Virus record (IMG/VR): IMGVR_UViG_2925908680_000001
Length of the DNA stretch: 64,000 nt
Source of the DNA: a virus
Taxonomy: Duplodnaviria > Heunggongvirae > Uroviricota > Caudoviricetes
Strand: one strand, 5' to 3'
Within the stretch, counting starts at the first letter, position 1, and every line of letters begins with the position of its first letter. Below, piece by piece: positions 39,651 through 40,863 of this stretch. The notes beneath the pieces were generated by a model. That model saw only the letters and a list, made by a program, of their open reading frames with translations, ran no database searches and was not told the DNA's origin. The translations under genes were made by a program, and so were the position numbers.

Positions 39651-39682
39651 TAACTTTAAATAATTGGCATTATTTAAAGTTA
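39651..39682. other. rox recombination site (TAACTTTAAATAAT-TGGC-ATTATTTAAAGTTA)
   Basis: 14-bp perfect inverted repeats around 4-bp spacer; reverse complement equals the published rox sequence as I recall it. Confidence 0.9.
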
Positions 39683-39834
39683 GGCTATAATCATGTGTAG
39701 ATGAACAGTGTTGACATCACTGAAAATACGTGCCTCGAATCAAAGGTTTGTATTTTGAAAATTAACTTATAGCTACCCTGTCATTTTTATATTTTTCGCG
39801 TAGCGACATCTGTATATAGAGGTGAAATAGTTTC

Positions 39835-40863
39835 ATGAGTGAATTAATTATCTCTGGCAGTTCCGGTGGTTTTCTGCGCAACATTGGCAAAGAGTACCAG
39901 GAAGCCGCAGAAAACTTTATTCGGTTCATGAATGACCAGGGGGCTTATGCGCCGAATACACTGCGCGACCTCCGGTTAGTGTTTCATTCCTGGGCGCGCT
40001 GGTGTCACGCTCGCCAGCTTGCCTGGTTTCCGATCTCACCAGAAATGGCCCGCGAGTATTTTCTTCAGCTGCATGATGCCGATCTGGCTTCGACCACCAT
40101 TGATAAGCACTACGCCATGCTGAACATGCTGCTTTCGCATTGTGGCCTTCCGCCACTTTCGGATGATAAAAGTGTTTCTCTGGCTATGCGGCGCATCCGG
40201 CGCGAAGCGGCAACTGAAAAAGGCGAACGAACAGGCCAGGCTATTCCTTTGCGGTGGGATGATCTGAAACTGATCGACGTCCTGTTGTCCAGGTCAGAAC
40301 GGCTGGTGGACCTGCGCAACCGGGCTTTTCTCTTTGTTGCATACAATACGCTGATGCGTATGTCGGAAATCTCGCGTATTCGCATAAGAGATCTGGACCA
40401 AACAGGTGACACTGTCACGTTGCATATTTCACACACGAAGACAATAACGACCGCAGCCGGGCTTGATAAGGTGCTTTCCCGTCGCACTACTGCTGTGCTG
40501 AATGACTGGCTGGAGGCTTCCGGGCTTCGTGAACATCCTGACGCGGTGCTGTTCCCGCCGGTACACCGTAGCAATAAGGCCAGGATTACGGCAACGCCCC
40601 TTACTGCGCCTGCAATGGAGAAAATATTCAGCGACGCCTGGGTGTTGCTGAATAAAGGAGATGCTACGCCAAACAAAGGAAGATACCGGACGTGGACCGG
40701 GCATAGTGCACGCGTCGGGGCCGCTATCGATATGGCTGAAAAGCAGGTATCTATGGTGGAGATTATGCAGGAAGGAACCTGGAAGAAACCGGAAACACTT
40801 ATGCGGTATCTGCGCCGTGGCGGCGTGTCTGTGGGGGCTAATAGCCGCCTGATGGATTTGTGA
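39835..40863 (+). CDS. dre: Dre tyrosine site-specific recombinase (Cre family)
   Basis: 342 aa; MSELIISGSSGGFLRNIG... N-terminus; Cre-like catalytic block WTGHSARVGAAIDMA...MRYLR. Confidence 0.9.
   Translation: MSELIISGSSGGFLRNIGKEYQEAAENFIRFMNDQGAYAPNTLRDLRLVFHSWARWCHARQLAWFPISPEMAREYFLQLHDADLASTTIDKHYAMLNMLLSHCGLPPLSDDKSVSLAMRRIRREAATEKGERTGQAIPLRWDDLKLIDVLLSRSERLVDLRNRAFLFVAYNTLMRMSEISRIRIRDLDQTGDTVTLHISHTKTITTAAGLDKVLSRRTTAVLNDWLEASGLREHPDAVLFPPVHRSNKARITATPLTAPAMEKIFSDAWVLLNKGDATPNKGRYRTWTGHSARVGAAIDMAEKQVSMVEIMQEGTWKKPETLMRYLRRGGVSVGANSRLMDL

What the first reader, a model, noticed from the sequence alone, without database searches (positions are those of the whole stretch)
39651..40863. 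rox site plus Dre recombinase: identifies the element as phage D6-like
The 32-bp palindrome at 39651 is the reverse complement of the rox site as I recall it, and the adjacent 342-aa Cre-family protein begins MSELIISGSSGGFLRNIG like Dre. The system itself is known, so it is a taxonomic anchor. The type III res/mod genes that follow cre in P1 are replaced here by dut and DUF2829 genes.
Basis: partly seen in the sequence, partly recalled or inferred. Interest (0 to 1): 0.45.

Follow-up and report, generated by a model that had tools for sequence, protein, structure and literature searches.

The report
Dre recombinase and rox site (known)
The window carries the already well-characterised Dre recombinase gene and its rox target site from a phage-D6-like plasmid prophage of E. 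coli. The finding is correct but ordinary, and the sequence is already in GenBank.

Summary
Observation confirmed. Window 39651-39682 is 32/32 identical to the rox site annotated in the phage D6 record and is the reverse complement of the published roxP oligonucleotide. It occurs once in the window, with none expected by chance. The ORF at 39835-40863 (342 aa) is 332/342 identical to D6 Dre. All seven Cre-type catalytic residues are kept, and none of the 10 substitutions falls at a known specificity position.

The site lies 152 bp upstream of the gene, between c1 and dre, exactly as in D6. The whole window is collinear with the D6 genome at 93-98% identity. It is byte-identical, over the 21 kb compared, to GenBank CP031767.1, a 101.6-kb E. 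coli plasmid. The exact protein is already catalogued as WP_119743292.1.

The "res/mod replaced by dut and DUF2829" remark is only loosely right. P1 has c8, ref and mat between cre and res/mod, and the dut/DUF2829 order is simply the D6 order.

Three small extras came up:
- The only near-consensus sigma-70 promoter in the 64 kb has its -35 hexamer in the centre of rox, which suggests Dre autoregulation.
- Sequence similarity among relatives breaks exactly at rox.
- An 89%-identical dre-rox cassette also sits in IS26-bounded resistance regions of IncY/IncX3 plasmids.

Verdict: already known, low interest.

The parts
39651..39682 (.). rox recombination site: left arm 39651-39664, spacer TGGC 39665-39668, right arm 39669-39682
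   Evidence: 32/32 identical to the rox feature of AY753669.1. Reverse complement of the published roxP (PMC4777119). Unique in the window, 0 expected by chance. Perfect 14-nt inverted arms.
39664..39691 (+). Putative sigma-70 promoter of dre overlapping rox: -35 TTGGCA 39664-39669 (centre of rox), 16-nt spacer, -10 TATAAT 39686-39691
   Evidence: 11/12 consensus match. It is the only match of at least 11/12 on either strand of the 64-kb window, and 40/2000 shuffles of the intergenic region give one. TATAAT is retained in all but one of the related loci with Dre at least 70% identical, although the adjacent bases vary. Function is inferred, not shown.
39692..39834 (+). dre leader with conserved blocks and a Shine-Dalgarno sequence GAGGTG at 39819-39824
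   Evidence: The rox-to-ATG distance is 151-153 nt in all 35 related loci where a rox-like site was found. Conserved blocks are visible in the alignment. The RNA fold gives z = -2.2, which is weak.
39835..40863 (+). dre: Cre-family tyrosine recombinase Dre, 342 aa
   Evidence: 332/342 identical to D6 Dre. Pfam Phage_integrase 1.2e-16. Best solved relative is Cre, 1nzb, E 5.6e-69. Catalytic residues R175, E178, K202, H290, R293, W316 and Y325 are present. The exact sequence is WP_119743292.1.
38403..39440 (-). c1 prophage repressor (context, immC region), divergent from dre
   Evidence: Annotated c1 in D6 at the homologous place. Weak NCBIfam phage_rep_C1 hit. Recorded as PF27008.
35503..38375 (+). 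pacA (35503-36867) and pacB (36867-38375) terminase genes (context). A candidate pac region, a GATC cluster, lies at 35818-35949.
   Evidence: Homologous to D6 pacA/pacB. Five GATC in 132 bp against 3.4 per kb across the window. The pac assignment is inferred by analogy with P1.
40937..43693 (+). Genes downstream of dre: orf 40937-41281, orf 41278-41754, dut 41751-42245, Tad2-like/DUF2829 42260-42910, isaA-like 42917-43693
   Evidence: ORFs. Pfam dUTPase 1.7e-14 and Tad2-like 4.2e-18. Same order as in D6.

Best explanation
This is the native Dre/rox site-specific recombination module of a phage-D6-like phage-plasmid. The window is GenBank CP031767.1, an E. coli plasmid of 101.6 kb.

Dre is a Cre-type tyrosine recombinase. 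By analogy with the solved Cre-loxP complexes, one monomer binds each 14-bp arm of rox and two occupied rox sites synapse into a tetramer. Tyr325 then cleaves and exchanges one pair of strands in the central region to give a Holliday junction, and the second pair is exchanged to finish the reaction. No accessory factors are needed.

In the element's life cycle this should do what Cre/lox does for P1. It would resolve plasmid dimers to monomers so that the low-copy prophage segregates faithfully. It would also circularise terminally redundant linear DNA after injection, because rox lies about 3.8 kb downstream of the presumed pac site in pacA.

I further infer that rox doubles as the core of the dre promoter: the -35 hexamer lies in the rox centre and the -10 lies 3 nt beyond the right arm. 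Bound Dre would then occlude RNA polymerase and keep its own level low.

Shown here: the identity of the site and the protein, their arrangement, the catalytic residues, and synteny with D6. Shown in the literature for D6 Dre: recombination of rox and not loxP. Inferred: the biological roles, the pac position and the autoregulation.
For: - rox is identical to the D6 record and to the published roxP.
- Dre is 97.1% identical to D6 Dre, and the 10 substitutions are at Cre-equivalent positions 28, 145, 182, 183, 226, 227, 242, 252, 274 and 343. None is a catalytic residue, and none is the K43/R259/G263 specificity position named in PMC4957104.
- Cre structures are the best solved relatives, E 5.6e-69 over residues 22-341.
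- The pacA-pacB-c1-rox-dre layout is the same as in D6 and parallels P1's pacA-pacB-c1-lox-cre.
- The whole window is collinear with D6.
- Relatives are almost always on plasmids of about 90 kb: 126 of 129 places in complete E. coli genomes, and 140 PLSDB plasmids.
- Dre is reported to recombine rox and not loxP or vox (PMC3553980; PMC4957104).
- A D6-like plasmid's recombinase and site are described as a multimer-resolution function in PMC6799933.
- Promoter: 11/12 consensus, unique in the 64 kb, and its -10 is conserved while the neighbouring bases vary.
Against: - No experiment on this allele exists in what I could read. The G185R and R275G substitutions are non-conservative, though both move toward the Cre residue.
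- The promoter is a consensus match only. 2% of shuffles of this AT-rich spacer produce one.
- One related cassette (L040) has CATGAT in place of TATAAT.
- The original D6 papers (Sauer and McDermott 2004; Gilcrease and Casjens 2018) were not available, so I do not know whether the promoter or pac were mapped.
- The pac site and packaging direction are assumed from P1.
Confidence: 0.93

Rival explanations
1. It is a different Cre-family orthologue (Cre/loxP of P1-type phages, or a Panto/pox-like enzyme) with its own target specificity, and only superficially resembles Dre/rox.
For: Cre-family members share the fold, and Cre is the best solved-structure hit. Divergent Dre relatives with altered sites do exist: L036 is 70% identical with spacer TAGC, and L038/L039 are 55% identical with arms TAACTTTATATAA. 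Panto/pox is a known close system.
Against: The protein is 332/342 identical to D6 Dre against 136/346 to Cre. The site is 32/32 rox. No loxP-like site is found with up to 3 mismatches. In the phage collection there is a clean gap between D6 at 97% and Cre at about 41%.
Confidence: 0.02
2. The module is a decayed or inactive remnant, a passenger cassette like the IS26-flanked copies, with no role in this element.
For: An 89%-identical dre with an intact rox is found as an isolated cassette between IS26 copies in resistance regions of IncY/IncX3 plasmids, detached from any phage backbone.
Against: Here the ORF is full length with all catalytic residues. rox is perfect. The promoter, Shine-Dalgarno sequence and 152-nt spacing are intact. 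The flanks are the native D6 pac-c1 and dut arms, with no IS element nearby. The 90%-identity cluster has 289 members, and the 15 listed include eleven full-length 342-aa members.
Confidence: 0.04
3. The 32-mer is a chance AT-rich hairpin or transcription terminator and not a recombination site.
For: The same arms occur by chance as a terminator-like palindrome in an AT-rich Clostridia MAG with no recombinase nearby.
Against: In the window it sits at the conserved distance upstream of a 97%-identical Dre and is invariant across dozens of loci whose left flanks are unrelated. It lacks a flanking T-run terminator context.
Confidence: 0.01

Closest known systems
Dre/rox of Escherichia phage D6 (AY753669.1, MF356679.1; Sauer and McDermott 2004)
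   Same: An identical 32-bp rox site. Protein 97.1% identical. Same orientation and the same 152-bp spacing. Same flanking genes: pacA, pacB and c1 on one side; two orfs, dut, a DUF2829 gene and an isaA-like gene on the other.
   Different: Ten amino-acid substitutions (M29I, L147I, V184I, G185R, D227E, V228A, I243V, T253A, R275G, S342L). The neighbouring DUF2829/Tad2-like gene is 216 aa here against 146 aa in D6, with about 300 bp that have no nucleotide match. The host plasmid is 101.6 kb against 91.2 kb.
Cre/loxP of phage P1
   Same: Same fold and the same catalytic heptad. Same genomic logic: pacA-pacB-c1-site-recombinase. Presumably the same roles in dimer resolution and cyclisation.
   Different: About 39% identity. 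The site is 14-4-14 rox, not 13-8-13 loxP, and loxP is absent from the window. There is no cra gene between site and recombinase. The P1 record annotates four cre promoters, none overlapping lox, whereas here a promoter is embedded in rox. The downstream genes differ (c8-ref-mat-res-mod in P1). No P1-type C1 operators are present.
Panto/pox of Pantoea sp. aB (PMC4957104)
   Same: A Cre-family enzyme whose site arms differ from rox by one nucleotide. Dre and Panto cross-recombine each other's sites.
   Different: Panto is only 52% identical to Dre. The window protein belongs to the Dre branch at 97%. IMG/VR loci L038/L039 (55-56% identical) resemble the Panto branch, but this window does not.

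Membership tests
Dre/rox system (phage D6) | Target site rox: 14-bp inverted arms TAACTTTAAATAAT around a 4-bp asymmetric spacer (GCCA/TGGC) | tested here: met
   32/32 identity to the D6 record feature and to the published roxP. Unique in the window.
Dre/rox system (phage D6) | Full-length protein close to Dre AAV84949 and clearly separated from Cre | tested here: met
   332/342 identical to Dre. 136/346 to Cre. In the phage collection, 97% for D6 and then about 41% for all Cre.
Dre/rox system (phage D6) | Tyrosine-recombinase catalytic residues (Cre R173, E176, K201, H289, R292, W315, Y324) | tested here: met
   R175, E178, K202, H290, R293, W316 and Y325 are all present. Pfam Phage_integrase hit.
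Dre/rox system (phage D6) | Specificity-associated positions (equivalents of Cre K43, R259, G263) unchanged relative to D6 Dre | tested here: met
   The 10 substitutions map to Cre positions 28, 145, 182, 183, 226, 227, 242, 252, 274 and 343 only. The positions are named in PMC4957104.
Dre/rox system (phage D6) | Site immediately upstream of the gene, between c1 and dre, in the D6 orientation | tested here: met
   152 bp between rox and the ATG, as in D6 and (151-153 bp) in all 35 related loci where a rox-like site was found.
Dre/rox system (phage D6) | Recombines rox and not loxP | not testable with these tools
   Reported for D6 Dre in PMC3553980 and PMC4957104. Not assayed for this allele.
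D6-like phage-plasmid | Genome-wide collinear nucleotide similarity to phage D6 | tested here: met
   Window 1-25000: 87% covered at 96.4%. Window 25001-39666: 98.2%. Window 50001-64000: 71% covered at 93.5%. All are in one orientation, with the D6 origin at the rox centre.
D6-like phage-plasmid | D6-type plasmid replicon and partition genes | not tested
   The closest PLSDB relatives are typed rep_cluster_1704 and non-mobilizable. The replicon of this element was not located in the window.
D6-like phage-plasmid | Produces infective virions | not testable with these tools
   Only gene content was seen: terminase, portal, tail-fibre and tRNA genes.
Cre/loxP (P1-type) | loxP 13-8-13 site and a protein close to Cre | tested here: not met
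   No loxP-like site with up to 3 mismatches. 39% identity to Cre.

The most novel reading that the evidence does not exclude
rox is not only the crossover site but also the core of the dre promoter (-35 in the spacer, -10 three bases past the right arm). Dre would then repress its own synthesis by sitting on its recombination target. The same site would be the point at which D6-like phage-plasmids swap immunity (c1) arms against dre arms: similarity between relatives drops from 94-98% on the dre side to 81-93% on the c1 side, and to 24% in the 84 bp (-100 to -16 from the rox centre) next to rox.
Probability: 0.35. Interest if true: 0.3.

Novelty: already known. Interest (0 to 1): 0.1.

Why it matters
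As a finding it matters little. Dre/rox has been a standard genome-engineering tool since 2004, D6-like phage-plasmids are catalogued in E. coli and Salmonella, and this exact plasmid and protein are already in GenBank. It does serve as a reliable anchor for labelling the window as a D6-like phage-plasmid and not a P1-like one.

The by-products are of modest practical interest:
- Natural Dre alleles that keep an invariant rox, and natural rox variants (A9G in one arm; spacers GGGG and TAGC), form a small ready-made panel for people who engineer Dre specificity.
- The promoter embedded in rox could explain background transcription across rox sites in bacterial constructs.

Tried and rejected
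- I tried to read Sauer and McDermott 2004 (DOI and a PMC id given from memory) and Gilcrease and Casjens 2018 (PMC5800970). None is held, so what those papers say about promoters, pac or mosaicism could not be checked.
- I searched the window for the P1 C1 operator consensus with up to 3 mismatches and for loxP with up to 3 mismatches. There were no matches.
- I scanned species-representative genomes for rox arms with any spacer. The single hit is a terminator-like palindrome in an AT-rich Clostridia MAG with no recombinase nearby, so I rejected it as a chance look-alike.
- Locus L042 (pSa1423-90k) has a frameshift-ridden dre region, probably an assembly-quality problem, and was not used.
- The leader RNA fold gives z = -2.2, which is too weak to build on.
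- Rfam found nothing in 39000-41000.
- No structure prediction was run. Cre crystal structures match at E 5.6e-69, so it would add nothing.

Full report
**1. The observation**

The sequence at 39651-39682 reads TAACTTTAAATAATTGGCATTATTTAAAGTTA. It consists of two perfectly complementary 14-nt arms separated by the asymmetric tetranucleotide TGGC. It is therefore an interrupted inverted repeat and not a strict palindrome. Allowing any spacer and up to three mismatches, it is the only such site in the window, and none appears in 100 dinucleotide-preserving shuffles. The ORF at 39835-40863 on the + strand encodes 342 aa beginning MSELIISGSSGGFLRNIG.

**2. Identity of site and protein**

A megablast of 39400-41000 against annotated phages returns only phage D6, at 96.4% over the full query. 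The annotated features there are "region of crossover (rox) site for Dre recombinase" and "dre: tyrosine recombinase". The window 32-mer is identical to the rox feature of AY753669.1 (4909-4940) and lies in the same orientation relative to dre. It is the exact reverse complement of the wild-type roxP oligonucleotide printed in PMC4777119, which also describes the 14-4-14 architecture.

The protein differs from D6 Dre (AAV84949, identical in both D6 records) at 10 of 342 positions: M29I, L147I, V184I, G185R, D227E, V228A, I243V, T253A, R275G and S342L. Aligned to P1 Cre (136 identical columns of 346), all seven catalytic residues are present: R175, E178, K202, H290, R293, W316 and Y325. The substitutions fall at Cre-equivalent positions 28, 145, 182, 183, 226, 227, 242, 252, 274 and 343. 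None of these is K43, R259 or G263, the positions that PMC4957104 links to the loxP-versus-rox/pox distinction. Four substitutions change the residue to the one Cre has, or to a similar one.

Pfam gives Phage_integrase (1.2e-16), and the best solved relatives are Cre structures (1nzb, E 5.6e-69, residues 22-341). A tblastn against all phage records shows a clean gap. D6 matches at 97%, and every Cre of P1, P7, SJ46, RCS47, phiW39, JL22 and others matches at about 41%. No loxP-like site exists in the window.

**3. What the element is**

The three chunks of the window match the D6 genome collinearly and in one orientation:
- 1-25000: 87% covered at 96.4% identity.
- 25001-39666: 98.2% identity, ending exactly at D6 coordinate 1.
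- 50001-64000: 71% covered at 93.5% identity.

The D6 record is opened at the centre of rox. P1-type phages match only short shared modules.

The exact protein is in NCBI as WP_119743292.1 / AXS00113.1, in a 90%-identity cluster of 289 members. The contig that encodes it, CP031767.1, is an E. coli plasmid of 101,638 bp from GCA_002804345.3. It carries dre at coordinates 39835-40863, and its bases 29835-50863 are identical to the same window coordinates at all 21,029 positions. The window is therefore the first 64 kb of a deposited plasmid.

Related dre-rox regions occur in 140 PLSDB plasmids, mostly non-mobilizable replicons of about 90 kb from Escherichia, Salmonella and Shigella. They also occur in 124 of 5,426 complete E. 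coli genomes, with 126 of 129 places on plasmids. D6-like plasmid prophages are described in the literature (PMC6799933; bioRxiv 10.1101/2025.09.12.675607).

**4. Neighbourhood and the res/mod remark**

To the left are lpa, pacA (35503-36867), pacB (36867-38375) and c1 (38403-39440, minus strand). To the right are two small ORFs, dut (41751-42245), a PF11195 Tad2-like (ex-DUF2829) gene (42260-42910), an isaA-like gene, then pdcA, doc and phd. This is the D6 order.

P1 has the parallel left side (lpa, pacA, pacB, c1, coi, imcB, imcA, lox). To the right it has cra, cre, c8, ref, mat and only then res and mod on the opposite strand. So "res/mod that follow cre are replaced by dut and DUF2829" is an acceptable shorthand for a different right arm. 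It is not a local substitution, and it is not specific to this window.

**5. How it most likely works**

By homology to the Cre-loxP structures, Dre monomers bind the two arms of rox and two sites synapse. Tyr325 then carries out sequential strand exchanges through a Holliday intermediate. Dre is reported to recombine rox without host factors, in E. coli and in mammalian cells, and not to act on loxP or vox (PMC3553980, PMC4957104).

For the phage-plasmid, the expected roles are those established for Cre/lox in P1. One is dimer resolution, which is stated for a D6-like plasmid in PMC6799933. The other is circularisation of terminally redundant DNA after injection. The second role needs rox near the packaging start. 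pacA contains a cluster of five GATC in 132 bp (35818-35949, against 3.4 per kb across the window), about 3.8 kb upstream of rox. This resembles the Dam-site-rich P1 pac, which lies 4 kb from lox. It is an inference.

**6. Things found beyond the finding**

(a) A promoter inside rox. The promoter scan finds TTGGCA-16 nt-TATAAT at 39664-39691, pointing at dre. The -35 hexamer is the last base of the left arm, the spacer, and the first base of the right arm. It is the only match of at least 11/12 on either strand of the 64 kb, and 2% of shuffles of the intergenic region yield one. In 33 distinct intergenic sequences from IMG/VR and plasmids, the TATAAT is kept in every locus whose Dre is at least 70% identical, except one IS26-flanked copy. 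The three bases before it and the ten after it vary. Dre bound to rox would overlap the polymerase footprint, so autoregulation is plausible. P1 differs here: its annotated cre promoters lie outside lox.

(b) rox as a module boundary. Relative to the window, one group of loci (L008, L015-L017, L019, L020, L022, L023) is 94-98% identical on the dre side. On the c1 side it is 81-93% identical, and in the 84 bases next to rox (-100 to -16 from the rox centre) 24% (62% in L023). The change sits at the left edge of rox. At least five unrelated left flanks abut the same site. This fits Dre-mediated exchange between co-resident elements, although ordinary mosaicism of immunity regions could contribute.

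(c) Natural site variants. These are A9G in the left arm only (11 loci), spacer GGGG (L024), spacer TAGC with a 70%-identical enzyme (L036), and TAACTTTATATAA-TGTCAG-TTATATAAAGTTA with 55-56%-identical enzymes (L038/L039). The last probably belongs to the Panto/pox branch.

(d) A free-standing cassette. A dre 89% identical in protein (WP_039002937.1), with an identical rox, lies between IS26 copies in multiresistance regions of IncY and IncX3/IncY plasmids. The pair alone is therefore not an infallible backbone marker.

**7. Verdict**

The system is already known, the allele and the plasmid are already deposited, and nothing about the module is unexpected. Interest is low. The rox-embedded promoter and the breakpoint at rox are the only points that might merit a small experiment.

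Noticed in passing
window 39664-39691: The only sigma-70 consensus match of at least 11/12 in the whole 64-kb window has its -35 hexamer (TTGGCA) in the centre of rox and its -10 (TATAAT) 3 nt beyond the right arm, pointing at dre. The -10 is conserved across divergent relatives. This suggests that Dre represses its own promoter.
   Followed up: partly
window 39550-39700; loci L008, L015-L023, L028-L034, L036, L040: Sequence similarity among D6-like elements breaks at the left edge of rox. At least five unrelated c1-side flanks abut the same rox and dre arm, so rox looks like a module-exchange point.
   Followed up: partly
L040 (NZ_KX960110.1) 5026-6238; L045 (NZ_CP116973.1) 7001-8341: A dre allele 89% identical in protein (WP_039002937.1), with a perfect rox, sits between IS26 copies inside multiresistance regions of IncY and IncX3/IncY plasmids, detached from any D6 backbone. 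About 28 PLSDB records fall in this identity band.
   Followed up: partly
window 42260-42910 and 34038-34613: Two genes with the Thoeris anti-defence Tad2-like domain (PF11195, ex-DUF2829) flank the pac-c1-dre block. The one after dut is 216 aa here against 146 aa in D6 and 220 aa in other plasmids (66% identity), with about 300 bp (about 42321-42615) that have no nucleotide match to D6. It is a variable anti-defence hot spot.
   Followed up: partly
window 35818-35949 (inside pacA): A cluster of five GATC sites in 132 bp, against a window average of 3.4 per kb. It is a candidate D6-type pac site by analogy with the Dam-regulated P1 pac, but without P1's TGATCA/G hexamer repeats.
   Followed up: no
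window 18775-18980 and 58390-58600: Two C4 antisense RNA matches (18895-18980 at 68.8 bits; 58513-58600 at 76.7 bits), one with the a1/b1 target element (18775-18827) and the other next to an isrK match (58390-58468). These are two immI-like antisense control regions.
   Followed up: no
window 32097-33583: Five tRNA genes on the + strand upstream of lpa/pacA: Arg-TCT, Tyr-GTA, Thr-TGT, Ser-TGA and Met-CAT.
   Followed up: no
window 38403-39650: The c1 repressor (345 aa) scores only 25 bits against NCBIfam phage_rep_C1 (cut-off 500), and the P1 C1 operator consensus is absent from the whole window. There is no coi/imcA/imcB equivalent in the 210 bp between c1 and rox. The immunity specificity therefore differs from P1.
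   Followed up: partly
L048 (OZ007016.1, uncultured Clostridia MAG) 6381-6412: This is the only hit for rox arms with any spacer among 185,579 species-representative genomes. It is a perfect AT-rich palindrome (spacer TAAT) between convergent genes, flanked by A and T runs, with no recombinase nearby. It is a terminator-like chance look-alike of rox.
   Followed up: yes
L038/L039 (IMG/VR) about 2818-4014: Dre relatives at 55-56% identity are paired with a site, TAACTTTATATAA-TGTCAG-TTATATAAAGTTA, that carries the same A-to-T change in both arms. They probably belong to the Panto/pox branch. The -10 box after the site is not conserved there.
   Followed up: no
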